Below, one piece after another: positions 1-53,213 of a stretch of DNA of 56,140 bases. The stretch lies in the IMG/VR virus record IMGVR_UViG_2563366805_000004, positions 1 through 56,140 of that record; one strand, given 5' to 3'. The stretch comes from a virus (Duplodnaviria; Heunggongvirae; Uroviricota; Caudoviricetes). Position numbers and translations under genes: made by a program. The notes beneath the pieces were generated by a model. That model did no database searches. It saw only the letters and a program-made list of their open reading frames with translations, and was not told the DNA's origin. Numbering within the stretch: position 1 is the first letter of the stretch; each line of letters starts with the position of its first letter.

Positions 1-1490
1 TCTGCGATGGTTTTGTAGCCAGCCTTGAACGCTTCTGATTTCTCATTAATCTCCTCTGGAAGTTGAATCATGACGAATCTTCGAGACGAACCATCGACGC
101 TATTTGCTGCAATAGTTGCATGTGCGGTAGTCGCCGATCCTGCAAAAAAATCCATCACTATATCGTCGCCTGCCGTGGTCATTTCCACTAGTGCCTGAAT
201 GATCGTTTCATCCTTCGGAAAATCAAAAACATGTGCTTCCATCAACGCATCAAGTCGAATTGATGCACCACGCCCATCTTGATAGAAAACGCTGTAAGCA
301 GCTTCTTTGTTTGCCTCGTGAAGATATACCTTTAATGTTGGCCGTGTCTTTTCGTCTGCACCAAATCGAATACGCTCATCTGCAAGCAACTCCTTCATGC
401 GCTCCGGGGCAAATGACCAGCCATTAGGATGCATATTCACTGGTTTCCCAGTTATTGGATGCAAAATTTCATAGCGCGAGCGCGATGTGGGCTGTGGTTT
501 GCGAAGATCACTTGCAAAATAGATACCTCGCTTGTCAACGTATTGATAGTGTTTATGCCGCTTACTTGGATCGCTATCGGAGAGGCTGCTATACCATTTT
601 CGCAAGCCAACTTCGACAGCCGCATCGTCACCACCAAACTTACGGCGCAACTCCGAATAGGTTTTCTCAATTTCGGTGAGACCCTTTTTCAGAATTTGCC
701 ACGAGGCTCCTCGCTCTTTAAGAGCATTCATACTACGCGCAAAGCAAATGATGTATTCGTGTGACGCCGATATAAAGCGCGAGTCATTCTTTCGTCCAGC
801 AGCCCAAACCATCGTACCTACAAAATTCTCTGCACCGAAAACTTCACTGGCTATACTTTTTAAGTTCTCAAATTCAGCATCATTGATGGAGATAAAGATG
901 GCACCATCTTCTTTTAATAACCCCCTGGCAAGACGAAGCCGTGAATAAATCATTGAGAGCCAATCGGAATGAAAGCGACCATTCGATACTGTGTTAGCCA
1001 CCAACCTATTTCCGTCTTCATCTACTTGATTTGAACGACGCAAGTATTCGTCTGCATCTTCGGCAAAGTCATCCTCGTAAATAAAGTCGTTCCCGGTGTT
1101 GTACGGCGGATCAATGTAGATCAGCTTCACCTTGCCCAGATACGTCTCCTGCAACAGCTTCAGTGCATCAAGGTTGTCTCCCTCAATGAACAGGTTCTTC
1201 GTCGTATCGAAGTCCACACTTTCCTCACGCACCGGGCGCAGTGTCTTGGCAATCGGCGCGTTAGCCGCGAGCAAGGCTTCGCGCTTACCGGGCCAGTTCA
1301 GGTGGTAGCGTTCTTGCGGTCCTTCCACAATCGACTCAGCAAGCTCCTGCCGCAGTTGGTCAAAATCCACCGCCAGTTTCACACTGCCGTCTTCGCCCTT
1401 GGCTTCGGTGATGCAGCCTGGAAACAGATCGCGAATGCGGGCGATGTTGTCCTGCGTGAGATTTGGTGAATGCATTTTTAGCTTTTCCAT
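1..1490 (-). CDS. Type III Mod-like N6-adenine DNA methyltransferase, partial (C-terminus beyond window start)
   Basis: Minus-strand frame opens at ATG 1490 (MEKLKMHSPNLTQDNIARIRDLFPGC) after a GAGGA RBS and has no stop before the window edge, so it is absent from the ORF track. Same frame carries DPPYNTGNDF near 1100 and DFFAGSATTA near 130-158, the motif IV-then-motif I order of beta-class Mod enzymes. Confidence 0.8.
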   Translation of the reverse strand, partial: MEKLKMHSPNLTQDNIARIRDLFPGCITEAKGEDGSVKLAVDFDQLRQELAESIVEGPQERYHLNWPGKREALLAANAPIAKTLRPVREESVDFDTTKNLFIEGDNLDALKLLQETYLGKVKLIYIDPPYNTGNDFIYEDDFAEDADEYLRRSNQVDEDGNRLVANTVSNGRFHSDWLSMIYSRLRLARGLLKEDGAIFISINDAEFENLKSIASEVFGAENFVGTMVWAAGRKNDSRFISASHEYIICFARSMNALKERGASWQILKKGLTEIEKTYSELRRKFGGDDAAVEVGLRKWYSSLSDSDPSKRHKHYQYVDKRGIYFASDLRKPQPTSRSRYEILHPITGKPVNMHPNGWSFAPERMKELLADERIRFGADEKTRPTLKVYLHEANKEAAYSVFYQDGRGASIRLDALMEAHVFDFPKDETIIQALVEMTTAGDDIVMDFFAGSATTAHATIAANSVDGSSRRFVMIQLPEEINEKSEAFKAGYKTIA

Positions 1491-1549
1491 GTTCTTTTCC
1501 TCTGGACGTCGCACTGTTGCGCGGCGTCCTAATTCTTTCTGGGCTGGTT

Positions 1550-2965
1550 TTATTCGGCGTCAGAATTGTTTTGGTGTTTGAGCTCGGCAAATTTGGCAGC
1601 CATCGTTGGGTTGCCGCGCGTGAGTCGCTTGACCGTCAGGTCTTCGGCTTTATCGTTGGCAAGCCGAAGATTGTTGGCGGACTTGTGCAGGGCTTCTTTG
1701 GTCTTTTCAAGGTCCTTGATGGCTTCGTCGATGCGCTTGACCGCTTCTTCAAACCCATCTGAAGCCAAACGCCAGTTGCGACCGAATGCGGTCTTGAAGT
1801 CATCGAGCTGGGTTTCAAATTGGGTGATGTCGATGTTCTGCGCCTTCACCAGCGCCAGCTCGGACTTGTATTGAAGTGACTTCATCGCTGCATTGCGTAG
1901 TAGCGTGATGATGGGGATGAAGAACTGAGGCCGAACGACATACATCTTCGGGTAGCGGTGAAACACATCAACGATCCCAGCGTTGTAAAGTTCACTGTCT
2001 GGCTCCAGCAGGGAAACCAGCACGGCGTATTCGCAACCTTTTTCGGTGCGGTCCTTGTCGAGCTCCTTGAAGAAGTCTTCGTTTTTCTTCTTGGTTGCTG
2101 TTTCGTCGCCTTCGTTCTTCATCTCGAACATGATCGAGACGATCTCGGTGCCTGCATCATCCATGTCCCGGAAGATGTAGTCGCCCTTGCTGCCGGTGCG
2201 AACGTCGTTGTCTTTTTCGAAGTAGGCCATTGGGAATGCGGTGGCTCGGAGACGGTTAAACTCAATCTCGCAATGCTGCTCCAGGGTTTCCCCAATCATC
2301 TTGGTCGACAGCCGTGCCTTCATGTCCCGCAGACGTACAATCTCACCATCGCGATCTTTAAGCTGTGTTTCGTATTTATCTTTGAGTGCAGTCTCGGCAA
2401 GTTGCTTTTCCAATGCTGCTCGCTCTAGTCCGTTCTTGAGTTCGTCACGCTCCTTCGTCACCACGCTGACCGCTTCGGTGAGCGCGAGCTTTTGTGTAAC
2501 TTCGCCCGCTGCAAGCTTGGCCTGCAGACGCTGAATCTCCGCATCCTTGGTGGCCTCGGCTTGCTGTAGCTCACTTAATCGCTTCGCCTCGGCCAGTTGA
2601 GCTTTAGTTTCAATCTCTTGCTTTGCTTTTTCCAGCGCGTTCCTCAGTGCATCGCGATCTTTTTCTACCGCGCTCAGCGCCTCACTGACAGCAAGCTTTT
2701 GCGCCACCTCTCCTGCATCCAGCCTAGCCTTTAATGCCTGGATTTCGGCATCTTTTTCAGAAGCAGCCTTCTGCAATTCGCTGGTAACCTTGGCTTGAGC
2801 CAGCTCGACCGCATTTTGCTTGTCCCTTTCGGCCAGCTCAAGGCGTTCATGTAACTGCTTCTCAAAGTCAGCATCGCGAACCTGTTTCAGAATGTCTGAG
2901 TAACCAGCTTCATCAATCTTGAAAGCCTTGCCGCAATGGGGGCAGATGATTTCATGCATAGTCAT
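1550..2965 (-). CDS. Zn-ribbon plus long coiled-coil protein, DUF2130-like
   Basis: 471-aa ORF with N-terminal CPHCGK zinc-ribbon motif, a long E/K/A/L-rich heptad region and a conserved C-terminal domain; start overlaps the upstream stop by 4 nt (ATGA); GAAGGA RBS. Confidence 0.6.
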
Positions 2966-4842
2966 TTTCCTTCTACCTTGGCCAAAATTTGCTGGAGCAT
3001 CTCTGGCACCGCCCCTGCGGATTTGAGTGTCGCCGTGCGGTATGCGAGTTGGTTCTTCGAGAGACTAATACCTGTGGCAATCTCGATTTCACTGCAAGCA
3101 GCTAGCCACTCAGGCCAGTTGGCTACGAGAAATGATTCCAGATGGTCTTCAAAAATGGCGACTGTGTCGCCTACGACAGCTTCCGGAAAATCTTCTTCAG
3201 CAATACCGAAGTATTTCAGAGCTGTCCGGTTTTCTCGGGCATTTTTTGCAAGTTCTTCATCGATCTTGTTTTGCTGTTTTCCTTTGGCTTTTGCTCGCGC
3301 CGCACATGCTCTGTCAGCATCGAAAAGCGCATAAACCGGGATACCGAGTGCGGACAGGATGGCATGGACAAGAGGAATCGACGTCTTGCCTCCGACTGGG
3401 ACAATGGAAATACCAGCGGCTTCAAGCGCACCATGAGATATTTTGTCGCCTATACCGTGGAACACCGATGACTCGGTGGTACCCTCCACAAGAAAAGCGC
3501 GATGGGCAAAGAGGGCTACAGCCAGTTGCTCTGAAACGATGCCATCTAACTGACGTTCGACAACATCACCATTTACTATCTGGTGCAGCCTGGTCTTCAC
3601 ATCATCAATGGAGGCAAAGTGGATAGTCACAGTCGGAGTCTCTCCAGATGATCGCGTCAATCTCCTGACATGATCAAAATGGCGGGCCTCAAGGAAATAA
3701 GGGCTGTGCGTTGCATAGGTTACTTGGATACACTTGTCGGGGTCTTCAACAAGTGAGCGGAGCACTTTTGCAAACGCCTGTGCCTGAATCGGGTGCTGAA
3801 AGAGCTCAGGTTCTTCAATTGCTAAACAGATGACTCCGTCGGCTGAAGCTGCTCCCGATTGTGCCAAGAGCTGGAGCGCCGAGATCAGAATAGTCCGCTG
3901 AAAACCATGCCCCTGTCGCTCTACCGCTGTTTCGGTTGTACCATCGAGCACGGATACTTCGAACGTGGTCTTGGGGGCTTTGAGCTCTACCTCTGCGGGA
4001 GAAACCGTGACCGCCCGACCGGGTGAGTATGAGCAAACAACCTCGTTAAGCTGCGTCGTCATCACCTTAAGCTGGGCTTGGAATTTCTCTTCGTAGACTT
4101 TCTGCTGCTTTGCTCTGGACTCCTCGACGATTGCCGCAATCTCCTGATCTGCCGCTGCACGATCAACGGAGCGTTCCAGGATGCGTCCGATGATGCTCGA
4201 TTTACCGTCAATGGACTCTTCGCTTGCACGAAGGTCTGCAGTCACCAGCACAAAATCGAAGAGGCCGCTCATCTTGCCGCCGCTGTTGAAACCAAAGAAG
4301 TTGGTTTGCAGCGATTCGGGGGCGTCTACGAGTAACTCTGTATGTGATGCCTCCCAGGTAGTCATTGCCTGGTCAATGGCTGTACCGGTAGTGGCTGTAG
4401 GAAGCTCCAGCTCTGGACGACTAGTTCTGAGATTTGTATAAAGCTCCCTCTTCGCCGCTACGCCATTTGCAGTTTTGATTACGTTGAACTCTGGGAATCC
4501 CTTTGCGTTTGCAGAGAGCACATCGGTGCCGTCAGCTGAACGGCGCTTCCACGCCGTGAATGTAGCTGCGCCCTCTGGAGTGTACTTACCAAGCGCCTCC
4601 CGATCCTTTTCGGTGAGATCTGCGAATGTGACTTGCACCTCGATGTCTTCGCTAGCTTCTCCAAAGGAGCAGTCTTTCTCTGTCAGCGAGCCGGGCTTGC
4701 CGTTGAAGAACCAATCGAGTGCATGTAGCACTGTCGACTTGCCAGCGCCGTTCGGCCCTATGAATGTCGTAACGGAGTCGAAGGGAATCGTGACGTCTTT
4801 GAGTGCCCGGAAGTTTTTGATGCGAACGGATTGAATCTTCAT
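2962..4842 (-). CDS. OLD-family ABC-ATPase / Toprim nuclease
   Basis: 626 aa; N-terminal [14 protein letters not shown]...[11 protein letters not shown] Walker A; C-terminal Toprim signatures FLVEGTTE and a DxD motif (ALFDAD). Confidence 0.8.
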
Positions 4843-4876: not shown

Positions 4877-5566
4877 TCAATGTTTGAGTTCTTCCAGTTC
4901 TATTTTCAACATTCGCAGTTTGGCGTTGATCTCTACCTTGCGGTTGAATTGTTTTTCTTTGGCAAGTCTGCTGGCTATTTTTTCAACCTCACGTTGCTTG
5001 GCTGCAACCAGTTCGACACGTGCGACCAAATCCGCGAGACTTTCTTGTAGGCGCGCGGGCGTGGAGATCAGGCTGTGAAGCAACTGCTCATACAAGCCGC
5101 CCAAGTCGAGTGCTAAGGGCATGGCGGCGCGCTCACAGTCACTCGGCAACCAGGCTGTTGCAAAGTAGTCACTCAAGACCCAACGGCTGGCGTCTGACTC
5201 ATTGGGGCGTTTGTACGCAGCGATCACCTTTGTTCGGCCATCAAAGCTCAGCTCGAAGATAATGGGAAACTGCACTGCGCCATCGATGCAACGCAAAACG
5301 TCCAGATTCAGCTCCGATGCCTTGAGCTGGATTGAGAAAATCTGAAGCTCTGGTACTCCCAGCCTGGCGGGCAGGTTGATCGTTTCCGGAGCCAACTTGT
5401 ATTGCCAGACGATCTGCTCCACCTGCTCGACGAACAAGTCCTTCAGCCTCGTATTGGCGCCGCTGTGTTCGTAGATCTTATTCTTTGGCAGGGTACGACC
5501 AAAGACAGCCTGCTTCGGATAGTTGATGAACGCGGTATTCGACTCAAATCGCGCAGACTGACTCAT
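4877..5566 (-). CDS. DUF4391-like protein
   Basis: 229-aa ORF, 4-nt overlap with helicase stop; family assignment is from recollection of this domain next to helicase/methyltransferase genes, not verified. Confidence 0.5.
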   Translation of the reverse strand: MSQSARFESNTAFINYPKQAVFGRTLPKNKIYEHSGANTRLKDLFVEQVEQIVWQYKLAPETINLPARLGVPELQIFSIQLKASELNLDVLRCIDGAVQFPIIFELSFDGRTKVIAAYKRPNESDASRWVLSDYFATAWLPSDCERAAMPLALDLGGLYEQLLHSLISTPARLQESLADLVARVELVAAKQREVEKIASRLAKEKQFNRKVEINAKLRMLKIELEELKH

Positions 5567-8500
5567 CCGGCCTCCTGAATCACGAGGAAGGTAATCAGTT
5601 CGAAGTCGTCCAGTCCGACGATAGTATTGACCAACGCGGTGGTCTTTCCGCTGCAGAAGAGGCTGTCCAGATCCTTATCTTCCTTCACCTCGATCATTGA
5701 GCGGATGGCCTTGCCAAGCAGGTCCGAATACATCTGCATCTTGCGGCCATCGGCCGTTTCCTTATTGAACAGGAGACAGGCATCTGTAATAGGCTGGGCT
5801 TGTCCCTTGCAGCAGGTGCGAACCAGATCCAGCAAACGTTTGACTTCGGTGTAATCGTGAATGACTTCCCCCTCGCGATTAATGTAGACGAGGTAATAAG
5901 GGTGCAGGCGGTTGTGCTGACTGACGTTGACGCTTGGATTCCGGTTGCGTAGCGTGAAGATTACACCCGGGCGTAGGCCCATCTCCGGCTTGGCAGGCAC
6001 TACGGCGTGCATCCCGCTTGGCACGTTGCTCATTTCGCCATTGGCCTTCACATAGTTGAGCAAGTCCATTCGGAAGTCATTGAGCCCGAGATCAGTAATC
6101 GACACTCCGGTTTTCAGGTCTTCCAGCTCAATCACTTCCTCTTGCAAACGTCGCAATTGCTCTTTGCGATAAGACACATCGTTGGCTTGGGCGCTCAGCA
6201 CATTGTCGTCACCGGTGGCAGTGACATCGGCAATCATCATTCGGCTTTCAACCCGTTCCTTCAGGTTGATGTATTCGTCGAGCGAGATGTCTGGCCAGTA
6301 GTTAACCAGTTGGATGCTGCTGTTGGGTGAGCCGATGCGATCCACACGGCCGAAGCGCTGGATGATGCGCACGGGATTCCAGTGGATGTCGTAGTTGATG
6401 AGGTAGTCGCAGTCCTGTAGGTTCTGGCCTTCAGAGATACAATCGGTGCCGATCAACACATCTATCTCTGCCTCCTCATTTGGCAGCACGATGGCTTTCT
6501 CCTTCGAGTGCGGCGAGAAGAGGGTGAGCAGTTCCTGGAAGTCATAGCTCTTCTTGAGCGTGCTCTTCGGTGCCCCTTTGCCGGTGACTTTTGCACTGTG
6601 CAAGGTCTGTGTAGCCAGCAATTCCGGAGCCAAATTGGCATACAGATAGTCAGCGGTGTCGGCGAAGGCGGTGAAGATCAGCACCTTCTTGTTGCCAGGA
6701 TTCAGCGGTGCTGCGATCTTTTCCAGAACCAGTGCTTTGAGATGCTGCAGTTTGGCATCATCGGCAGCCGTGATCTTGTTCATCGACGTCAGCAAAGCAT
6801 CAATGATTTCCAGATCGACCTTCAGCTCGTGCTCCCAGGAAGGCAAGTCCATATCGGCGAGGCTGATTTTGACCTTGCCACCGATCTCACTGTCGCCATT
6901 GCTTGGCAGGTCGTCGTCCGCGTCGAGGTTTTCTAACTGGTCGGTCAGGTCATTTATTCTGCTATCAATGCCACTGAGGCCGCCAGTCTCATTGAAAGTG
7001 CTGATCTTGGCCAGCGTATTAGTGTGGTTCGCGCGCAGGGACTTGAGCGTCAAGCGGAAAGACTCAATCGAGCTTTCCAGGCGCTTGAGCAGGTTGGTCG
7101 TCATCAATGCCTGCAAACTCTTTTCACGGTCGATTTGTTTAAGCTTGCCTTTCCCTGCAACCTGAGTGTCATACATCTCCTCGTACTTCTTGAGCCGACT
7201 GGGCAGAATGTAGCTGATCGGGGCATAAACGGCGAGCTTGAGCAAAGACAGCTGCTCGAAGATCTCGTTGAAGCTCATCACATCCGTTCGCTGCGTGAGC
7301 GGACAGTGGAACGACAAGGGTTTGCGGCGCTCGGGGAATTGGCCTATTTCCTTGGTGTCGTAGAAAGTCTGGATATGCTTGCGTGAGCGTGCGATGGTGA
7401 CGCTGTCGAGCAATTCGAAGAAGTCGAAGTCCAACGAGTCCAGGATGGCCCGCGCTGTGCGCTCTTCCGGTGGAAGCTTTGCCCATGCATTGAAGCTGGC
7501 CTGCGCACCACGGAAAATGTCCTCTACCGTCTTGCCGGTACGCAGCTTCTTGCTGAGGTTTTCGGAATCGCCTTCGTAGGCCAGTGCCAGTTGGTTGCGC
7601 AGGTCATTGAAGCGGTTGTTCACCGGGGTGGCCGAAAGCATCAGCACCTTGGTCTTCACGCCTTCCTTGATAACCTTGTTCATCAGCTTCTGGTAGCGGG
7701 TTTCCTTGTCCTTATAGGCGTCATTGTTGCGGAAGTTGTGTGACTCGTCGATGACGACGAGGTCGTAGTTGCCCCAGTTAATGCGATTCAGCGGTGTGCC
7801 AAATGACTCACCGCTCGTACGGCTGAGGTCGGTATGACAAAGTACGTCGTAGTTGAACCGGTCGCGAGCAAATATGTTGGTTTTGAGGTTACGGCTGTAG
7901 TTCAGCCAGTTGTCCGCCAGCTTCTTGGGGCATAACACCAGAACTGACTTGTTGCGCAGTTCGTAATACTTTATCACGGCCAGCGCGGTGAAAGTCTTGC
8001 CCAAGCCCACGCTGTCGGCCAAGATGCACCCGCTGTAGCTCTCAAGTTTGTTAATGATCCCGGTGGCAGCATCTTTCTGGTAATTGAAGAGTTTGTTCCA
8101 GATGAGCGTGTCTTGATAGCCTGTGCGGTCGTTCGGTAGGACATCCTCGTTGATGTCGTCCAGAAACTCATTGAAGATATTGTAGAGCATCAGGAAGTAG
8201 ATGCTCTCGGGCGAGTTTTCCTGGTAGACGGATGCAATGTGGTCGCAGATCTGCTCCGTTACATCCTCCAGCTTCTCAGGATCTTGCCAGATCTGGTTAA
8301 ACAGACTGAGGTAGGTCGCCGTAAACGTCGACTCGTCCATTTTGTTGACGAGGTTTGAGACAGCGTTGCCTTGCTGGTAGCCAAGATCGACGGCGGTAAA
8401 TCCGTGCAGTGGCATGTAGGCAGTCTCTGCGGCGGCGGCCTGAACACAAGCAAACTGCTGCATCGGAGCCTTGCTGCGATTGGACTTGAATGTTGCCTTG

Positions 8501-47469: not shown

Positions 47470-47937
47470 TCATCGAAGGCATTGCGTCCTGATGTATTCC
47501 TGAAGCGTTCTCAGTGCTGTTTGGTCGCGGATAATTCCGTCCCGGATACCGAGAACGTTTCGTCCAGCAACTGGAGAGAGTTCGACGGTGGCATCATTGC
47601 CCATGCCGGAGGCGCTGGAGGTTTCGGCTGAGGATGGCACAGGGCATTTTCCTTTGACGAACACCCGACCACCATTATCAAGCTTGCGCCGAAGAGCATC
47701 ATTTTTAGCTTTCGCATCAGCTAACTCCTTCGTGTATTTAGCATCGAGTGCATCAGCAGAACGCTGGCGCTGCTGCATGTCAGTAATGGTGGCGGTCGCC
47801 TCCTTCAGCTCACTGACTTTTTTATCTCGCTGTTCTTTGTAGGCGATGGCGTTATCACGGTAATGATTGACCGCCCACGACAGGCAGACGATGATGCAGA
47901 TAACCAGAGCGGAGATAATCGCGGTTACTCTGCTCAT
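47470..47937 (-). CDS. Rz: i-spanin Rz
   Basis: N-terminal TM anchor then coiled-coil; 4-nt overlap with endolysin stop. Confidence 0.75.
47511..47717 (-). CDS. Rz1: o-spanin Rz1 (embedded in Rz, +1 frame)
   Basis: Lipobox (VVGC) followed by Pro-rich segment [11 protein letters not shown], fully nested in Rz. Confidence 0.65.
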
Positions 47938-48431
47938 TGTTGCCCCCACAAACAGACTTCACGCTCAATCTCACGACGAGTCATCAGGCCTTTCCATTGC
48001 TTACCGCCAGCGTATATCCAGCGACGTAGCTGGTCACATGCGCCTTTGATATCGCCCTGGTTTATTTTGCGAAGAAGCGTCGATGTTCTGAAATTGCCAG
48101 CACCCACGTTGTAGACGAACGAGTAAAGAGCGCCGCGCGTTGTTTCCGGTATATCGACTTTGATGTACGGGTTAATTTGTCTGGCAACCGTGGCAAGGTC
48201 TTTATTCAGGAGGGCTTTGCATTCTGCTTCGGTATACGTTTTACCGAGCATGATGTCTTTTCCGGTGTGTCCGTGACATACAGTCCATACGCCAACGATA
48301 TCTTTGTATGGTATGTAACTGACACCTTCCAGGCCATCGTCACCACTTGGGCCAGTGATTAACACTGATGCTATAGCAATTGCTCCGCCACCAATAGCAG
48401 CAGCAACTGCTTTTCGTAATGATGGAGGCAT
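47934..48431 (-). CDS. R: SAR endolysin (T4-lysozyme-like, R21-type)
   Basis: N-terminal Gly/Ala-rich SAR domain [17 protein letters not shown]; lysozyme catalytic region. Confidence 0.85.
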
Positions 48432-48646
48432 TATTCACCTCTCGCAGCCTTGCGCTTATCTTCTTTAATCTTGAAATAAAGGTTTGTCAGGTACGTCAGC
48501 AGGCCAAATACCAGACTACCCAGCACACCTATTGCCGCCCACTGTGAGGGCGTGACTTTATCGAGCAACTGTAAAAACCAGTACCCGGCACTACCTGCTG
48601 AGGTGCCATAGGCGACACCCGTTGTTAACTTATCCATGGATTTCAT
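48431..48646 (-). CDS. S: Class II holin (S21-type), dual-start motif
   Basis: Start [26 protein letters not shown] with GAGGTGGGG RBS; MKSM dual start typical of antiholin/holin pair. Confidence 0.8.
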
Positions 48647-48713
48647 AACCCCACCTCGCAGATGCGGGTGCTGTGTAATGGAAATAAAAAGGCCACCTGA
48701 CGTGGCCACCAGA

Positions 48714-49766
48714 TTATTTCCCCACCAGCTCGTTTATCTCTTTCACTGTCTGGTTAAACCGCTCTGACTCAAGCTCAACACCTAAGGCCCGACGCCCCAG
48801 CGCCATTGCTGCTTTTATTGTGGAACCGGATCCCATAAAAAAATCAGCAACCAGATCACCAGGTCGACTACTGGCATTGATTATTTGCCTGAGCATATCC
48901 ACTGGTTTCTCACACGGATGTTTACCCGGGTAGAACTGAACGGGTTTATGCATCCAGACATCGGTATAAGGCACGGAGACTGATACGGAGAAATAGCGCC
49001 GGAGAGATTTAAACTCATCCAGCAATTCAGAATATTTGCGATTCAGTGAATCATAAGATGCCACCAGCTGGTGGTGTGGTTGTTCCAGTTGTTGTTCCTG
49101 AAACTTCTCTGCCGCTATACGGGAAAACAGTGCCTGTAACTTCCGATAGTCAGCCTCATTCGGCAACTGCCACTGACTGGCACCAAACCAGTGGGAAACC
49201 ATATTTTTCTTACCTGTGGCTTCGGCAATTTGTTTTGCCGTTATACCCAGTTCGGCACGAGCATCCCTGAAATACGATATCAGCGGTGCCATTATGTGCT
49301 GTTTGAGTTCCCTTTCTTTTGCCGCATAGCCGTCACTTTTGCCGCGATATGGCCCCTGGTAATGTTCAGCAAACAGAACGCGCTCTGTGGCAGGAAAATA
49401 TGCGCGCAGACTTTCTTTATTACACCCATTCCAACGTCCGGACGGCTTCGCCCAGATGATATGGTTAAGCACGTTGAAACGTTCACGCATCATGATCTCA
49501 ATATCAGATGCCAGGCGATGCCCACAGAACAGGTAAAGGCTTCCGGCAGGTTTCAACACCCGCCAGAACTGGGCCAGACAGTGGTCCAGCCACTTAAGGT
49601 AATCTTCGTCCCCTTTCCACTGATTGTCCCAACCGTTGGGTTTCACCTTGAAGTAAGGCGGATCGGTAACAATCAGGTCAATGGAATCATCAGGCAGGGA
49701 CTGAATAAAATGCAGGCAATCAGCGTTGATTAAATCAACACTGTTTATTTTTACAGTATTTTTCAT
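48714..49766 (-). CDS. Phage DNA N6/N4 methyltransferase
   Basis: 350 aa; TDPPYF motif near N-terminus and FMGSGST near C-terminus. Confidence 0.8.
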
Positions 49767-49916
49767 GGATCAGTAAGCGTAACTCTGGTAGGCTCACTCT
49801 GCTTTTGCGCTAAAGCAGTGGGCCGTGGTTCGCTTGTGACCAGTAAGCATGAGCGAATGGCTGGCAGGTGCTACCAACACCCACCAGCCGCCCATTTTCA
49901 CAGCAGGAAACCGCCA

Positions 49917-50120
49917 TTACTGGCAGCGTCTGAATTTATTCCCGTACCCGCCGTTATCCTTCGCCAGACCCGCCAGAACTAACTGAGTCAGTATTAACTG
50001 GCACCGGGCTTCGCTTACTCCGGTAGTTCTCGTCATCATGCGTGGCGTTACCCACTTGTCAGCAGGTAAGAAATGAAGGACTGCGGCGGCGGTTTCTGTC
50101 ATATCTTGCTGTTTTAGCAT
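49917..50120 (-). CDS. Small hypothetical protein (67 aa)
   Basis: Start at MLKQQDM with AAGGGA RBS; lies between the cassette and the methyltransferase. Confidence 0.35.
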   Translation of the reverse strand: MLKQQDMTETAAAVLHFLPADKWVTPRMMTRTTGVSEARCQLILTQLVLAGLAKDNGGYGNKFRRCQ

Positions 50121-50240
50121 GTCTTTTCCCTTCTGGTTAACATGACATACCAATAACTCTTGTCTAAAAAGCCAGCAAGATAAAAAGCCAGTATTCACGA
50201 CCACCAGCGTGTTTACTGTACTGCACAAGGTTTACAGGTA

Positions 50241-50263
50241 CAAAAAAACCGCTCAGCGGCGGG
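50241..50263 (-). terminator. Rho-independent terminator on minus strand (candidate tR'-like)
   Basis: Minus strand reads ccgc tga gcgg followed by ttttttt. Confidence 0.5.
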
Positions 50264-50384
50264 TTTAAGTTGTGTGGCGAAGTAACCACTCTTAACACGA
50301 TATAATACTTTTTGCGTACGCGTTAGGATTTTTATAAACTATGCGTCCCCATTCTCGCTATCTTTAGTCGGTCCTGGAATACAC

Positions 50385-51311
50385 ATGAAAGTTAGAAGCA
50401 TAGGATTTACAATAAATAACAATAACAAAAATATTAATACCGTTGACGTAATGAATGCTTTTATCAACGCATCAAACAGAGAACACAGTCGCACAGACTA
50501 TACTCGTAAAATTCTCATTTCGGATGTGAATGATTTCTATTATGGATTAGTTGTCACATTCAGAAACCAAAAAAAGAACTGTAAGTCGCAATTTGTTGAT
50601 GGTAAATTCCAGCTTAAAATTGAAGATCTTCAAGGAAGTGACAAACTTGCTAATTTCAACTTTTTCTTAATTAAAAAATCTAATCTTTCTGGTCTCTATA
50701 TGTATCACCACGGTTCATGCAGTCTGAACACTCTCTTTTCTCATTTAGAAACAATAAGTAATGAATTTATCAGAAATCAAAATAAAGAAGAAATAAAAAA
50801 ACTTGGTGATAAACCAAAACAAAAAGAAGTAACTGCAATAAATAAAAAATACAAAGAAAGACTGACTTTCAGCCTTATGACAAATAAAAACAACATTCAG
50901 AGTGTTTTATGTCAATTCAAAGAGATTAAAAGCACAAGCTTTAAATTTAATTATATAGATTTTAAAGGTGGACCAATGACTGCGCTTGAACAATTTGTTA
51001 ACACCACCACAATAGATATGAATTTTAATTCTAGCGACAGAACAAAAGTGCAACAACTATCTCAGAATCTTTCAAATATTTATAATTCTATGAGTGGAGT
51101 TGCTAAAGCACAGGTTATTGCAGTAAACCATGCAGGAATAGAAAAAACCATTGATTTTATGAACTGCCCTGTTTTTTTTGAAACATACGATTTCGATATA
51201 ATTGCCGATAAAGTCAATGGATTGACAAACGATAATTATACAACAAACCCTGTTTTTGATATGATAAAAGAAGAAATGCTGAACGGGACGAATAAAAATG
51301 CCTTTATATGA
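50385..51311 (+). CDS. Hypothetical 308-aa soluble protein, first gene of AT-rich two-gene cassette
   Basis: Asn/Lys-rich ORF on the strand opposite to all flanking phage genes; no motif recognised by eye. Confidence 0.65.
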   Translation: MKVRSIGFTINNNNKNINTVDVMNAFINASNREHSRTDYTRKILISDVNDFYYGLVVTFRNQKKNCKSQFVDGKFQLKIEDLQGSDKLANFNFFLIKKSNLSGLYMYHHGSCSLNTLFSHLETISNEFIRNQNKEEIKKLGDKPKQKEVTAINKKYKERLTFSLMTNKNNIQSVLCQFKEIKSTSFKFNYIDFKGGPMTALEQFVNTTTIDMNFNSSDRTKVQQLSQNLSNIYNSMSGVAKAQVIAVNHAGIEKTIDFMNCPVFFETYDFDIIADKVNGLTNDNYTTNPVFDMIKEEMLNGTNKNAFI

Positions 51312-51846
51312 ATGGCTAATAAATAAAAGATTGAGGTATCAGTACCTTACACTGCTTGCATTCTCGATCCTGGCATTGCTTGCACTTTACCTATTGTACA
51401 GAAACACACCTAAAGTAAGTGTTAACTTTTTTGATTTTTATCATAAAAACTTACGAGGCTATCTCTTCTCCGGTTTTATTTCCGTGGGCTCATTTTTATT
51501 GAGCCTGCATACCTTTGTCATAATAAATTTACGCGATAAGGTTTTTGCAACTCAGGAATATAAGGAAATTTATAGCATTGCCACTGGTATACCTATTGAC
51601 AAAATCAATGATAGTGTACTTTATAAACCTTTAGACAATTTATCCTCATTTATTAATACATCAATATTATGTTCTATCACAACAGCAATTGCACAATTCA
51701 CTATTGGGCTTTCAACTAATTTATATGCATGCTTATTTTGCGTATGGCTTGCAATACTAACGGTATTTCTTTTATTACATTGCCTCATCATAATCAGACA
51801 AAATATTAAAATTTTATTAAAGCAACAGAGAAAAAAAGGGGGGTAA
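51298..51846 (+). CDS. Hypothetical 182-aa integral membrane protein (4 predicted TM helices), second gene of cassette
   Basis: Overlaps upstream gene by 14 nt; four hydrophobic segments at approx. aa 16-34, 54-78, 115-137, 141-166; basic C-terminus. Confidence 0.65.
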   Translation: MPLYEWLINKRLRYQYLTLLAFSILALLALYLLYRNTPKVSVNFFDFYHKNLRGYLFSGFISVGSFLLSLHTFVIINLRDKVFATQEYKEIYSIATGIPIDKINDSVLYKPLDNLSSFINTSILCSITTAIAQFTIGLSTNLYACLFCVWLAILTVFLLLHCLIIIRQNIKILLKQQRKKGG

Positions 51847-51853
51847 TCCCCCC
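51838..51853. terminator. GGGGGG-TAAT-CCCCCC hairpin between convergent cassette gene and Q
   Basis: Perfect 6-bp G/C stem; A-run on plus side gives T7 run after the hairpin on the minus strand, 5 nt after the Q stop; cassette stop codon sits in the loop. Confidence 0.6.
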
Positions 51854-51858
51854 TAATA

Positions 51859-52200
51859 TTACAACATTGAAAGCACACCATCCAGAAAACCAAGAGCTGT
51901 TTGCAACTCTTTTCTTATTGTCCCATCAGAACACTTCTGCTTCTTTGCAATAGTTCTTAGTGAGATGCCGATAACAAAATGAGCAATAACCAACTCATAC
52001 TCTTCGGGCTTATATTTCCGCAATCGCGCAACACAGCTGTCAATCATGATTCCTTCATCATCATCGCATTGTTGGCGTGTTTTCTTTCCATGAGGTAGTA
52101 AACCTTTAAACCCTGCAGCAACAGGCTGCCAGTCCACACCACTGTTATCTGCTGCAGCCCATGCACCCCAGCGGTCCAATACTTCATACATATCACGCAT
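51859..52200 (-). CDS. Late-gene antiterminator Q (QuuD-like)
   Basis: MRDMYEVLDRWGAWAA…GFKGL…CDDD matches recollected QuuD family; start chosen by homology (listed ORF starts 15 nt upstream at 52215). Confidence 0.75.
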   Translation of the reverse strand: MRDMYEVLDRWGAWAAADNSGVDWQPVAAGFKGLLPHGKKTRQQCDDDEGIMIDSCVARLRKYKPEEYELVIAHFVIGISLRTIAKKQKCSDGTIRKELQTALGFLDGVLSML

Positions 52201-52217
52201 CAACTTTCTCCACAAAA

Positions 52218-53213
52218 TCAGGCCAGTACGCCAATTGCCAGTGCACGATCGATAAAACGAAATATCAGCTCCAGCTGGGAGCCATACTTCTCTTCAAATG
52301 CCACGGTATCCGCATGCAGCTCGTCGTGATGCTTTCTGCACAAAGGCAACACAAAGAGGTCATGCGCTTTTGTAGCCATTCCACCCTGACCGTGACCTAT
52401 CAGGTGGTGGGGATCATCAGCAGGTTTTCCACAACATGCGCACGGCTGCGTCTTAACCCATCGCGTGTACTTTTCATTAACCCAGCGGCGACGTTTGGGG
52501 CGTAACATAAAAGACTCCGGCGACTCCGGATCCACTTTCAGCGCCAGCACCTTTTTCGCCTTATCCTGGATGATGCTGGTGGCAGGAACCGAAGGCATAA
52601 GGTCACTTTCCCGGGTAACAGACGGCACAACAGGCTTCGGTAATCTCAGTGCCTTACGGGCTGCACTTTCCGGTAAGGCATCCGCCAGATCATTACGAAT
52701 CAGCCACCAGCACAGTTCCGGCATTGTCACAACGTGACTATCATCAAAACCGAGATCCCGACGCACAACAGACAACACCCAGCGGGCACAGTTATCCGTT
52801 GCCATTGATTCCAGCCGTTCCGTGAACTGATCGCGCAGCTGGTTATCGCAGTGCCAGCACAAACGGATTGCGCCCGGAGCGTGTCGCATTGTTGTCATGT
52901 TCTCGCTGTGCCAGTCGGAATGAGGCCACTGGCAGCCTTTTTCACGAAGTAACCAGCTTTCAAGACATTCCACGCCACCAGCACGACGGATCACTGCCTC
53001 ATTGCGGAACACGGCCCGAACGGCAGGATCATCCGCCAGCGGTTGTGATGCCGCCGGAACGGCACCACTGGCGAAAGATGAATAACGTTCCGGCTCAGGC
53101 TCCAGCAAGACACGCCCCTGCATAAACAAGGGCATCAGCTCTGAACCTGGTCTGAACAATACGATCCCCATACGCGGGGCAATTTCAGGGGTCAGTAGTG
53201 CTCTCACGGTCAC
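52218..53213 (-). CDS. DUF968 (YdfU-like) phage protein with C-terminal HNH-like Cys/His cluster
   Basis: C-terminus CACCGKPADDPHHL…LPLCRKHHDELH. Confidence 0.7.
   Translation of the reverse strand: MTVRALLTPEIAPRMGIVLFRPGSELMPLFMQGRVLLEPEPERYSSFASGAVPAASQPLADDPAVRAVFRNEAVIRRAGGVECLESWLLREKGCQWPHSDWHSENMTTMRHAPGAIRLCWHCDNQLRDQFTERLESMATDNCARWVLSVVRRDLGFDDSHVVTMPELCWWLIRNDLADALPESAARKALRLPKPVVPSVTRESDLMPSVPATSIIQDKAKKVLALKVDPESPESFMLRPKRRRWVNEKYTRWVKTQPCACCGKPADDPHHLIGHGQGGMATKAHDLFVLPLCRKHHDELHADTVAFEEKYGSQLELIFRFIDRALAIGVLA

What the first reader, a model, noticed from the sequence alone, without database searches (positions are those of the whole stretch)
50241..51861. Terminator hairpins insulating the cassette from phage transcription
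A perfect GGGGGG-TAAT-CCCCCC hairpin with a T7 run on the minus strand lies 5 nt after the Q stop and contains the cassette stop codon in its loop; it should block Q-operon read-through into the antisense cassette. A second minus-strand hairpin plus T7 run at 50241-50263 lies just beyond the cassette start and could be the tR'-like terminator that Q overrides, which would place the late promoter unusually far from Q. A weak candidate sigma-70 promoter for the cassette (TTGCGT … TATAAA, 50312-50338, short spacer) sits between them.
Basis: seen in the sequence. Interest (0 to 1): 0.4.

Follow-up and report, generated by a model that had tools for sequence, protein, structure and literature searches.

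The report
Prophage late-operon terminator and moron terminator
The two hairpins are real but do different ordinary jobs in an E. coli lambdoid prophage: one ends the early operon where it meets an inserted, backwards-facing RexAB-like gene pair, and the other is the terminator that the phage's Q protein overrides to switch on the lysis genes.

Summary
Both hairpins are in the sequence exactly as described. Hairpin 2 (50248-50260, T7 at 50241-50247, minus strand) is the tR'-type terminator of the Q-dependent late operon. It closes an ~85-bp block (50241-50326) found between an antisense insert and the lysis genes in 78 of 78 related loci, including DLP12 of E. coli K-12. The upstream part of that block changes together with the Q protein's C-terminal region. 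Phages with a Q-lambda-family Q join their own pR' to the same terminator. That distance is the rule in this Q clade, not an oddity. Hairpin 2 does not insulate the cassette, because late transcription starts beside the cassette's 5' end and runs away from it.

Hairpin 1 (51838-51853, T7 on the minus strand) is a strong intrinsic terminator between the convergent Q gene and the cassette. It travels with the cassette.

Eleven of 12 cassette types keep this geometry. The cassette looks RexAB-like by fold.

No transcript data were available. These are known kinds of element and of modest interest.

The parts
51859..52200 (-). Q antiterminator gene. The ORF list extends it to a TTG at 52215; relatives are annotated from the ATG at 52200. 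It is the last gene of the early-right operon.
   Evidence: Pfam PF06530 at E = 2.5e-45. Distant match to Q21 structures 6p18/6jnx at E = 2.6e-4. Annotated 'antiterminator Q family protein' in E. coli genomes.
51831..51854 (-). Hairpin 1: intrinsic terminator between the convergent Q gene and the cassette. Stem 51838-43 / 51848-53 plus an A-U pair at 51837/51854, loop 51844-47, U7 tail at 51837->51831 on the minus strand. The plus-strand tail is only TAATATTA.
   Evidence: The window carries the minority perfect allele; 19 of 21 same-cassette loci have GGGGGA (-11.4 kcal/mol). Orthologous cassettes in three other genera have non-homologous hairpins at the same place.
51298..51846 (+). Cassette gene 2: 182-aa protein with several hydrophobic segments, RexB-like by analogy only. 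Its last codons (AGA AAA AAA GGG GGG TAA) are the terminator DNA.
   Evidence: hydropathy. The C-terminal QRKKGG extension is absent from the Salmonella, Yersinia and Serratia orthologues.
50385..51311 (+). Cassette gene 1: 308-aa protein with a RexA/RdgC-type fold. GC content is about 0.30.
50312..50340 (+). Candidate cassette promoter, divergent from pR': -35 TTGCGT (50312-17), 17-nt spacer, -10 TAAACT (50335-40). Predicted start is near 50347; the ATG is at 50385.
   Evidence: TAnnnT lies 17-18 nt after TTGCGT in 11 of 12 cassette types. Background is 0.024 per position; binomial tail 2e-12. Match to consensus is only 7 of 12, and no transcript data exist.
50310..50325 (-). TAACGCGTACGCAAAA: invariant element and candidate Q-binding element. 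It contains the palindrome GCGTACGC and overlaps the -35 regions of both divergent promoters.
   Evidence: Unique in the window against 0.06 expected. Invariant in all 78 viral-contig loci and conserved in Salmonella (one base changed), Yersinia and Serratia. It changes with the Q C-terminal region.
50297..50326 (-). Candidate late promoter pR': -35 CTAACG (50326->50321), 18-nt spacer, -10 TATCGT (50302->50297). Start predicted within 50296-50288.
   Evidence: The -10 keeps the TAnnnT pattern in every variant while its sequence differs (TATCGT, TATTGT, TAATCT, TATGCT, TATCAT, TAATGT, TAACGT, TAAGCT). DLP12 and PhiR40_1 versions read TTTACG/TTTACA-16-TATGCT. An alternative -10, TATTAT at 50307->50302, fits the phage 21 spacing to TAAGAG.
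50278..50296 (-). GTTAAGAGTGGTTACTTCG: near-invariant start of the late leader. It contains TAAGAG/AAGAGT-GG, a possible sigma-dependent pause element, and the 5' arm of a small leader hairpin.
   Evidence: Comparators are the phage 21 SDPE TAAGCTG and AACGATGGG in the Q-lambda-family phages. The assignment is unresolved.
50241..50262 (-). Hairpin 2: tR'-type terminator of the roughly 48-nt pR' leader. Stem within 50260->50248, U7 at 50247->50241. This is a weakened allele (GCGG-T7 instead of GCGGG-T6).
   Evidence: Homology with Q-lambda-family phages ends exactly here, at window 50265. Annotated 'terminator' in SfV and Ayreon. Stem conserved and loop variable. Replaced by unrelated hairpins in a few loci. 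Energy -6.4 against -12.0 kcal/mol for the common allele.
47470..50120 (-). Late genes under pR'/Q control: 67-aa ORF (50120->49917), DNA methyltransferase (49766->48714), S21-type holin, lysozyme, and an Rz-position ORF (47949->47470).

Best explanation
The region is the late-control junction of a lambdoid prophage whose phage genes here run on the minus strand. The early-right operon ends with Q (52200->51859).

An antisense, low-GC two-gene moron lies between Q and the late promoter. It is RexA-fold protein plus small membrane protein (50385-51846, + strand). It occupies a slot that in relatives holds at least ten different cassettes.

Hairpin 1 is the convergent-gene terminator at the Q/cassette junction. 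On the Q strand it is a canonical intrinsic terminator (6-7 G-C-rich pairs plus U7). It should stop unmodified early transcription before that transcription runs antisense through the cassette and on into the late region. On the cassette strand the same hairpin has a poor U tract and would be a weaker stop.

The late promoter pR' and its Q-binding element lie at about 50297-50326. Transcription starts near 50290 and, without Q, ends after about 48 nt at hairpin 2 (tR'). Q made from the gene 1.5 kb upstream acts in trans, loads at this site and lets RNA polymerase read through hairpin 2 into the methylase and lysis genes.

The cassette is read from a divergent promoter (TTGCGT-17-TAAACT, 50312-50340) whose -35 lies inside the Q-binding block.

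Shown by sequence and comparison: the positions, the conservation, the co-variation with Q and the promoter geometry. Inferred: all transcriptional activities.
For: Anatomy.

The whole locus is 99.8% identical in phage mEp460_4F5, and 218 E. coli genomes carry at least 80% of 50150-52300.

In 78 of 78 loci encoding a Q at least 87% identical, GTTAAGAGTGGTTACTTCG lies 1003-3780 nt past the Q stop. Ten or more different low-GC antisense cassettes lie in between. Conservation begins sharply at TAACGCG.

The same block sits between antisense nmpC and essD in K-12 DLP12, whose Q is quuD.

The upstream element changes with the Q C-terminal region. It is TAACGCGTACGC with ISLR.IAK.RKCSDGT, and this holds even at 63-67% identity in Yersinia and Serratia. 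It is ACGCGGTCCGC with ISKRKIAKA, and TTTAC..CGTAAAAAA with quuD-type Q.

Phages with a PF03589 Q carry their own lambda-like pR' (TTGCAT-17-TAAGAT-TTTCCC-AACGATGGG) fused to the same terminator. Homology to the window ends at 50265. That terminator is annotated in SfV and Ayreon.

The annotated phage 21 unit (-35, QBE in the spacer, -10, TSS, SDPE, terminator) is about 85 bp, the same size and order of parts.

Hairpin 1: orthologous cassettes in Salmonella, Yersinia and Serratia are also convergent with a PF06530 Q. Each has an unrelated hairpin of -12 to -19 kcal/mol in the gap.

Cassette promoter geometry: 11 of 12 types.
Against: No transcript start, transcript end or Q-binding data exist for this element.

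Look-ups in K-12 Term-seq and Cappable-seq supplements found no entry at the DLP12 homologue.

Both promoters match the sigma-70 consensus poorly (7 of 12 each) and were not listed by the scan.

The pause element could not be placed with phage 21 or lambda geometry if the conserved TAnnnT is the -10. The alternative -10 that fits the geometry is not well conserved.

The putative Q site is a palindrome, not the direct repeat seen for Q21.

The window's tR' allele is weak at -6.4 kcal/mol.

Stem co-variation is not significant because the stem barely varies (95 of 500 shuffles reach the observed value).

The Yersinia and Serratia loci show no obvious terminator after the block.

Only 3 of 11 cassette types have a canonical Q-strand terminator after Q.
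Confidence: 0.75

Rival explanations
1. One reading: both hairpins are insulators that shield the antisense cassette from phage transcription, one on each side.
For: Both are minus-strand hairpins with T7 runs flanking the cassette. Hairpin 1 is well placed to stop read-through from Q.
Against: Hairpin 2 lies downstream of the conserved promoter block and of the cassette's 5' end, so minus-strand transcription reaching it has already left the cassette. Hairpin 2 belongs to the late module, which is shared with phages that have no cassette at all (720R4, SfV). Most cassette types lack a canonical Q-strand terminator next to Q.
Confidence: 0.1
2. pR' is next to Q as in lambda and phage 21. Q-modified polymerase then reads antisense through the whole cassette and overrides both hairpins.
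For: This is the textbook arrangement: the annotated phage 21 unit starts 6 nt after the Q stop. In locus L007 a related Q is followed on the same strand by a possible TATAAT promoter.
Against: Hairpin 1 begins 5 nt after the Q stop, which leaves no room for a promoter before it. DNA after Q is cassette-specific and unrelated among loci with nearly identical Q. A Q-matched site must be conserved, and the only conserved, Q-covarying element is at 50297-50326.
Confidence: 0.04
3. The conserved block is not pR'. It is an operator or regulatory hub for the cassette slot, with the palindrome GCGTACGC bound by some other dimeric regulator, or it is a small-RNA gene with its own terminator. The true late promoter lies elsewhere.
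For: The invariant element is palindromic. Consensus promoter matches are weak. The leader is more conserved than needed for a mere spacer and folds into two hairpins. A precedent recalled from memory: the short pR' RNA of Stx phages acts as an sRNA (StxS).
Against: The element co-varies with Q and not with the cassette. It always directly precedes the lysis genes. In Q-lambda-family phages the same position holds a recognisable lambda-type pR' joined to the same terminator. An sRNA role would be compatible with pR' rather than exclude it.
Confidence: 0.08
4. Hairpin 1 is only the cassette's own 3' terminator. The minus-strand T7 is incidental, because the A7 run simply encodes Lys-Lys.
For: The hairpin travels with the cassette, and other cassettes bring other hairpins, some oriented for the cassette strand. 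The A7-G6 run is translated as RKKGG.
Against: On the cassette strand the tail is TAATATTA, with 4 T in 8, below the scan's criterion. On the Q strand it is an uninterrupted U7. The QRKKGG codons are an extension absent from orthologues, so the terminator imposed the codons rather than the reverse. Yersinia also has the better tail on the Q strand.
Confidence: 0.15

Closest known systems
Phage 21 late regulatory unit (Q21, pR'21, QBE, SDPE, terminator), as annotated in OL657228 and described by Yin et al. 2019 (10.1101/651190)
   Same: The Q belongs to the same Pfam family, PF06530. The order of parts is the same in about 85 bp: promoter, Q site at the promoter, conserved start of the leader, and a terminator about 45-50 nt after the start. 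S21-type holin and lysis genes follow.
   Different: The window Q is only a distant relative of Q21 (E = 2.6e-4). The unit is 1.53 kb from Q instead of 6 nt. The candidate Q site is a palindrome overlapping the -35, not two direct 8-bp repeats in the spacer. The pause element could not be placed confidently. The unit shares its upstream half with a divergent promoter.
DLP12 cryptic prophage of E. coli K-12 (quuD - nmpC antisense - essD rrrD rzpD). Phage PA-2 with lc is a further example recalled from memory.
   Same: Identical architecture and a homologous leader and terminator block (GTTAAGAGTGGTTACTTCG...CCCGCCGTCGAGCGGGTTTTT) between an antisense moron and the lysis genes. The Q is of the same family.
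   Different: The moron is a porin gene, not a Rex-like pair, and it starts 400 nt from the block with its own upstream region. The promoter and Q-site half of the block differs (TTTACGTACGTAAAAAA) in step with a Q that is 45% identical.
Lambda-type pR'-tR' of SfV, Ayreon, mEp460 and vB_EcoM-720R4
   Same: The same late module, including the homologous terminator hairpin and the downstream 67-aa ORF, methylase and lysis genes at 98% identity.
   Different: Their Q is of the Q-lambda family, PF03589. pR' with AACGATGGG lies directly after Q. There is no antisense cassette in SfV and 720R4.
Morons of lambdoid phages (promoter-gene-terminator inserts; Hendrix and colleagues, recalled from memory) and bidirectional terminators between convergent genes
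   Same: Low GC (0.28-0.35 against about 0.5), own promoter and terminator, presence or replacement among otherwise similar phages, and a hairpin shared by two convergent genes.
   Different: The promoter's -35 is supplied by the conserved phage block rather than by the insert. The terminator overlaps the last codons of the insert.
Lambda RexA/RexB exclusion system
   Same: [quoted passage not shown] It is followed by a small membrane protein with several hydrophobic segments. The pair is carried by a temperate phage outside the lytic operons.
   Different: No sequence similarity. It is located between Q and pR', not beside the cI repressor gene. No exclusion phenotype is known.

Membership tests
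Intrinsic (Rho-independent) terminator: hairpin 1, Q strand | G+C-rich stem-loop immediately followed by a U-rich tract | tested here: met
   7 pairs (6 G-C), 4-nt loop, U7 directly after the stem, -14.1 kcal/mol.
Intrinsic (Rho-independent) terminator: hairpin 1, Q strand | Lies at the end of a transcription unit | tested here: met
   It starts 5 nt after the Q stop codon, and the next gene is convergent.
Intrinsic (Rho-independent) terminator: hairpin 1, cassette strand | U-rich tract after the stem | tested here: not met
   The tail is TAATATTA, with 4 T in 8, below the criterion used. The hairpin itself is strong at -15.1 kcal/mol.
Intrinsic terminator (both hairpins) | Transcripts end there in vivo or in vitro | not testable with these tools
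   No RNA data. K-12 Term-seq tables have no 3' end at the DLP12 homologue, which is uninformative.
Q-dependent late regulatory cassette (pR'-QBE-SDPE-tR') | Terminator shortly downstream of the promoter and upstream of the late (lysis) genes | tested here: met
   Hairpin 2 plus U7 lies about 30-50 nt after the predicted start. The methylase, holin and lysozyme genes follow. The terminator is conserved or functionally replaced in relatives.
Q-dependent late regulatory cassette (pR'-QBE-SDPE-tR') | A DNA site specific for the resident Q at the promoter | tested here: inconclusive
   The invariant TAACGCGTACGCAAAA co-varies with the Q C-terminal region in three allele classes. Binding was not tested, and the site is palindromic, unlike the Q21 direct repeat.
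Q-dependent late regulatory cassette (pR'-QBE-SDPE-tR') | Sigma-70 promoter | tested here: inconclusive
   The TAnnnT hexamer is conserved as a pattern in all variants, with a -35-like hexamer at 16-18 nt. The match is only 7 of 12 and the scan did not list it.
Q-dependent late regulatory cassette (pR'-QBE-SDPE-tR') | Promoter-proximal -10-like pause element at about +1 to +10 | tested here: inconclusive
   TAAGAG/AAGAGT-GG is invariant and resembles TAAGCTG (phage 21) and AACGATGGG (lambda type). Its spacing fits only the less conserved -10 candidate.
Q-dependent late regulatory cassette (pR'-QBE-SDPE-tR') | The unit directly follows the Q gene | tested here: not met
   1.53 kb and two antisense genes lie between them. 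This is the rule in the clade and in DLP12.
Moron | Insert with deviant base composition between conserved phage genes, absent or replaced in close relatives | tested here: met
   GC is 0.28-0.35 against about 0.5 in the flanks. At least ten alternative cassettes occupy the same slot.
Moron | Own promoter and own terminator | tested here: inconclusive
   The terminator travels with the cassette. The candidate promoter has its -10 in cassette DNA but its -35 in the conserved block.
RexAB-type exclusion system | RexA fold | tested here: met
   [not shown]
RexAB-type exclusion system | Adjacent RexB-like polytopic membrane protein | tested here: inconclusive
   The 182-aa product has three or four hydrophobic segments and its gene overlaps gene 1. 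There is no similarity to RexB.
RexAB-type exclusion system | Sequence membership (PADLOC, Pfam or PDB profile) | tested here: not met
   No hits.
RexAB-type exclusion system | Excludes superinfecting phage | not testable with these tools
   Needs plaque assays.

The most novel reading that the evidence does not exclude
The Q-binding block is a two-way switch. Its invariant element TAACGCGTACGCAAAA serves as the Q loading site for pR'. On the other strand it also provides the -35 and spacer of a resident divergent promoter that drives whatever defence cassette occupies the Q-pR' slot. When Q accumulates late in lytic growth, it would then turn on the lysis and virion genes and at the same time occlude the cassette promoter. 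That would switch off a RexAB-like (or CapRel-like, NACHT-type and so on) system that could otherwise harm the phage's own development.
Probability: 0.2. Interest if true: 0.6.

Novelty: new member of a known kind. Interest (0 to 1): 0.33.

Why it matters
For annotation, it places the late promoter, its terminator and the end of the early operon in a widespread family of E. coli prophages. At least 218 complete genomes carry this exact cassette, and thousands carry the same kind of Q.

It shows that in the quuD-like Q clade the late promoter is routinely separated from Q by an antisense insert. Automated rules that look for pR' just after Q will therefore fail.

It defines a precise, promoter-equipped slot between the Q stop codon and TAACGCG. 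That slot holds many different candidate defence cassettes and is a practical place to mine for new systems.

The overlap of the Q site with the cassette promoter gives a simple, testable idea for how a prophage could silence its own defence genes during lytic growth.

Tried and rejected
Rfam scans of the region and of the related phage's early region gave nothing relevant. The only matches were a chance-level STnc560 match and a sub-threshold STnc100 match elsewhere.

No tRNA genes are present.

I looked for experimental ends at the K-12 DLP12 homologue (about 577,229 for the start and about 577,277 for the 3' end). The Term-seq tables (PMC7815308) and the Cappable-seq supplements (PMC4782308) had no entries. 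The Thomason dRNA-seq paper and the two Rueggeberg DLP12 papers are not held. What I say about the latter is from memory.

The co-variation test on the tR' stem and on a leader hairpin was not significant, because the stems hardly vary.

I tried to place QBE and SDPE by analogy with phage 21 and lambda. No assignment satisfies both conservation and spacing, so it is left open.

I looked for an N-type antiterminator in mEp460_4F5 to judge whether early transcripts would ignore hairpin 1. None was recognised: the first pL gene is an HTH_17 protein. Absence cannot be proven.

PADLOC, NCBIfam, Pfam and a PDB profile search on the cassette proteins were negative. BFVD fold hits were all unnamed.

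A literature search for a described Q-pR' defence hotspot found nothing specific.

I rejected pR' directly after Q, and I rejected hairpin 2 as a cassette insulator (see the rival explanations).
Full report
**Setting.** The window is an E. coli lambdoid prophage. The stretch 50150-52300 is 100% identical in strain ECONIH4, and 218 complete E. coli genomes carry at least 80% of it. The stretch 49700-52300 is 99.8% identical in phage mEp460_4F5. The phage genes in this region run on the minus strand, in this order:
- a DUF968 gene, 53213->52218;
- Q, 52200->51859, Pfam PF06530 at E = 2.5e-45;
- a low-GC pair of genes on the plus strand, 50385-51311 and 51298-51846;
- a 67-aa ORF;
- a DNA methyltransferase;
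- an S21-type holin, a lysozyme, and an ORF at the Rz position.

**Checking the observation.**
- Hairpin 1 is GGGGGG-TAAT-CCCCCC at 51838-51853.
- The cassette stop codon is in its loop.
- It lies 5 nt from the Q stop codon.
- It is followed on the minus strand by seven T.
- It is the top terminator-like site in the scan.
- It folds at -14.1 kcal/mol on the minus strand and -15.1 on the plus strand.
- Its pattern occurs once in 56 kb against 0.08 expected.

Hairpin 2 runs 50260->50248 and is followed by T7 at 50247->50241. In this allele it is weak: -6.4 kcal/mol, and 21 of 200 shuffles fold as well. Energy alone would not establish it. The TTGCGT/TATAAA pair exists but has a 15-nt spacer, and the scan did not list it.

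**What hairpin 2 is.** Related phages settle this.

SfV, Ayreon, mEp460 and vB_EcoM-720R4 share the late module with the window at about 98% identity. The homology stops at window 50265, exactly at the upstream edge of hairpin 2. These phages have a different Q, of the Q-lambda family PF03589. Directly after that Q comes a lambda-like late promoter, TTGCAT-17-TAAGAT-TTTCCC-AACGATGGG, which runs into the same terminator. The depositors of SfV and Ayreon annotated that hairpin as a terminator.

A second comparison used 80 viral contigs that encode a Q at least 87% identical to the window's.
- The 19-mer GTTAAGAGTGGTTACTTCG lies downstream of Q in all 78 contigs that extend far enough.
- Its distance from the Q stop ranges from 1003 to 3780 nt.
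- The DNA in between consists of at least ten unrelated, low-GC (0.30-0.39) cassettes whose main ORFs are antisense to Q.
- Conservation starts abruptly at TAACGCGTACGCAAAAA. It continues through a hexamer that always reads TAnnnT, through the 19-mer, and into the terminator.
- The terminator stem CCCGC/GCGGG is constant while its loop varies.
- In a few loci an unrelated hairpin followed by a T-run replaces it.
- The stem varies too little for a co-variation test to be significant.

The same leader and terminator lie between antisense nmpC and essD in the DLP12 prophage of E. coli K-12, whose Q is quuD.

**The promoter half of the block follows the Q allele, not the cassette.** I found three classes.
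- Class 1: Q proteins with ISLR.IAK.RKCSDGT.RK in the C-terminal region. These are the window, E. coli L008, and the Salmonella, Yersinia and Serratia loci, the last two at only 67% and 63% identity. All have TAACGCGTACGCAAAA, with one base changed in Salmonella.
- Class 2: Q proteins with ISKRKIAKA..KDEKLIRIE. These have ACGCGGTCCGCA.
- Class 3: quuD and the UTI89/PhiR40_1 type. These have TTTAC(G/A)..CGTAAAAAA.

This co-variation is what is expected of a Q-binding element.

The richly annotated phage 21 record shows the reference layout for this Q family. It has -35 TTGACA, two 8-bp Q sites in the spacer, -10 AACACT, the start site, the pause element TAAGCTG at +2 to +8, and a terminator. 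The whole unit is about 85 bp and begins 6 nt after the Q stop (Yin et al., 10.1101/651190). The window block (50241-50326) has the same size and the same order of parts.

I therefore read hairpin 2 as tR'. I place pR' at 50297-50326: -35 CTAACG, an 18-nt spacer and -10 TATCGT, with a start near 50290. The terminated leader would be about 48 nt.

**Uncertainties in the fine structure.**
- Both hexamers match the consensus poorly.
- The invariant TAAGAG/AAGAGT-GG looks like a pause element. Its spacing fits phage 21 only if the -10 is the less conserved TATTAT (50307->50302).
- The candidate Q site is a palindrome (GCGTACGC; TTACGTACGTAA in DLP12) rather than a direct repeat.
- The Yersinia and Serratia loci show no clear terminator after the block.

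I leave the start site as a range, 50288-50296.

**What hairpin 1 is.** It belongs to the cassette, not to Q or to the late module. Each cassette type brings different DNA right up to the Q stop. By the same criteria as the scan, 3 of 11 types have a canonical terminator on the Q strand. These are the window type, L035 (which is bidirectional) and L057. Some other types have one on the cassette strand, or only a hairpin.

The window's own cassette family is older than E. coli. Homologues of gene 1 at 49-70% identity in Salmonella, Yersinia ruckeri and Serratia fonticola prophages are again followed by gene 2 and are again convergent with a PF06530 Q. Each of those loci has a strong but unrelated hairpin, -12 to -19 kcal/mol, in the short gap. 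Keeping the position while the sequence is replaced argues for function.

In the window the U7 tract is on the Q strand. The cassette-strand tail (TAATATTA) is poor. The hairpin should therefore chiefly stop early transcription coming out of Q.

The A7-G6 run is translated as the last codons of gene 2 (RKKGG). That extension is missing from the orthologues, so the terminator has been absorbed into the ORF end. The window carries the minority perfect allele. Nineteen of 21 same-cassette contigs read GGGGGA, at -11.4 kcal/mol.

Whether early transcripts are terminator-resistant could not be decided. No N-like gene is recognisable in mEp460_4F5.

**The cassette promoter.** In 11 of 12 cassette types a TAnnnT hexamer follows it at 17 nt (nine types) or 18 nt (two types). 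The hexamer sequences differ: TAAACT, TAGAAT, TATATT, TAAAGT, TAAATT, TATTTT, TATAAT, TACAAT, TACTTT. The background frequency is 0.024 per position, and the binomial tail is 2e-12.

In the window this gives TTGCGT (50312-17), a 17-nt spacer and TAAACT (50335-40). The predicted start is near 50347, which leaves a 38-nt leader. The slot thus appears to carry a resident divergent promoter whose -35 and spacer overlap the Q site and the -35 of pR'. This is a comparative inference only.

The cassette sits in a gap between the end of the early operon (hairpin 1) and the start of the late operon (pR'). Late, Q-modified transcription starts beside the cassette's 5' end and moves away from it. Hairpin 2 therefore protects the lysis genes from premature expression and does not protect the cassette. 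The long Q-to-pR' distance is real, but it is standard for this clade. Q is expected to act in trans.

**Side findings.**
- Gene 1 has no sequence-level family beyond phrog_2802.
- Together with the adjacent small membrane protein, this suggests a RexAB-like exclusion pair.
- Other cassettes in the same slot carry RelA/SpoT, metallophosphatase-NACHT, NA37, ion-channel-like and NYN domains. The slot therefore looks like a defence hotspot.

**Verdict.** The elements are new members of well-known kinds: tR', pR' with a Q site, and a convergent-gene terminator of a moron. The architecture is already exemplified by DLP12. The part most worth testing is the overlap of the Q site with a conserved divergent cassette promoter.

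Noticed in passing
[not shown]
   Followed up: partly
loci L009, L035-L090 (between the Q stop and TAACGCG); window equivalent 50327-51858: The slot between Q and pR' holds at least ten unrelated antisense, low-GC cassettes. They include proteins with RelA/SpoT, metallophosphatase+NACHT (1050 aa), NA37, ion-channel-like and NYN domains. It is a likely defence-gene hotspot with sharply defined borders.
   Followed up: partly
window 50248-50262 (-): The window's tR' allele has G->T in the 3' arm (GCGG-T7 instead of GCGGG-T6). This lowers the predicted stability from -12.0 to -6.4 kcal/mol. About 20 loci share this allele, including PhiR40_1 and UTI89. It may make late-gene repression leakier.
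   Followed up: partly
window 51829-51846 (+): The last codons of gene 2 (AGA AAA AAA GGG GGG TAA, giving RKKGG) are the terminator's A-tract and 5' arm. Orthologues in Salmonella, Yersinia and Serratia end 4-6 residues earlier and have their hairpin in the intergenic gap.
   Followed up: yes
window 51843 (+ strand G); loci L011-L034: The perfect G6/C6 stem is the minority allele (2 of 21 contigs). Most copies read GGGGGA-ATTA-CCCCCC (-11.4 kcal/mol).
   Followed up: yes
window 50264-50290 (-): The pR' leader is almost invariant across Q allele classes. It can form a 5' hairpin (GUGGU...GCCAC, kept with G-U changes) ahead of the terminator. A short, constitutively made RNA of this kind could have a function of its own, as reported for the Stx-phage pR' RNA (from memory).
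   Followed up: no
window 50310-50325; L091 about 5192-5203: The candidate Q sites are palindromes (GCGTACGC in the window, GCGG-T-CCGC in L009/L010, TTACGTACGTAA in DLP12). The Q21 site is a direct repeat. This suggests a different binding mode in the quuD-like branch.
   Followed up: no
L007 (E. coli FDAARGOS_433) 1-3333: A related PF06530 Q is followed on the same strand by a cytosine methyltransferase and then by an antisense DUF262 gene plus a HEPN-like nuclease gene. A possible TATAAT promoter lies directly after Q. This arrangement differs from the 78 other loci.
   Followed up: no
L092 (mEp460_4F5) 7832-8034 (-) and 8100-8468 (-): There is a sub-threshold Rfam match to the sRNA STnc100 (36.3 bits, E = 6e-5) in the leftward early region. 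The first pL gene is an HTH_17 protein, and no N-like antiterminator was recognised in this phage.
   Followed up: no
window 52218-53213 (-): The DUF968/HNH-like gene upstream of Q is labelled 'Phage antitermination protein Q' in the mEp460_4F5 record, so that record shows two adjacent 'Q' genes. Pfam gives DUF968 and HNHc_6 only.
   Followed up: no
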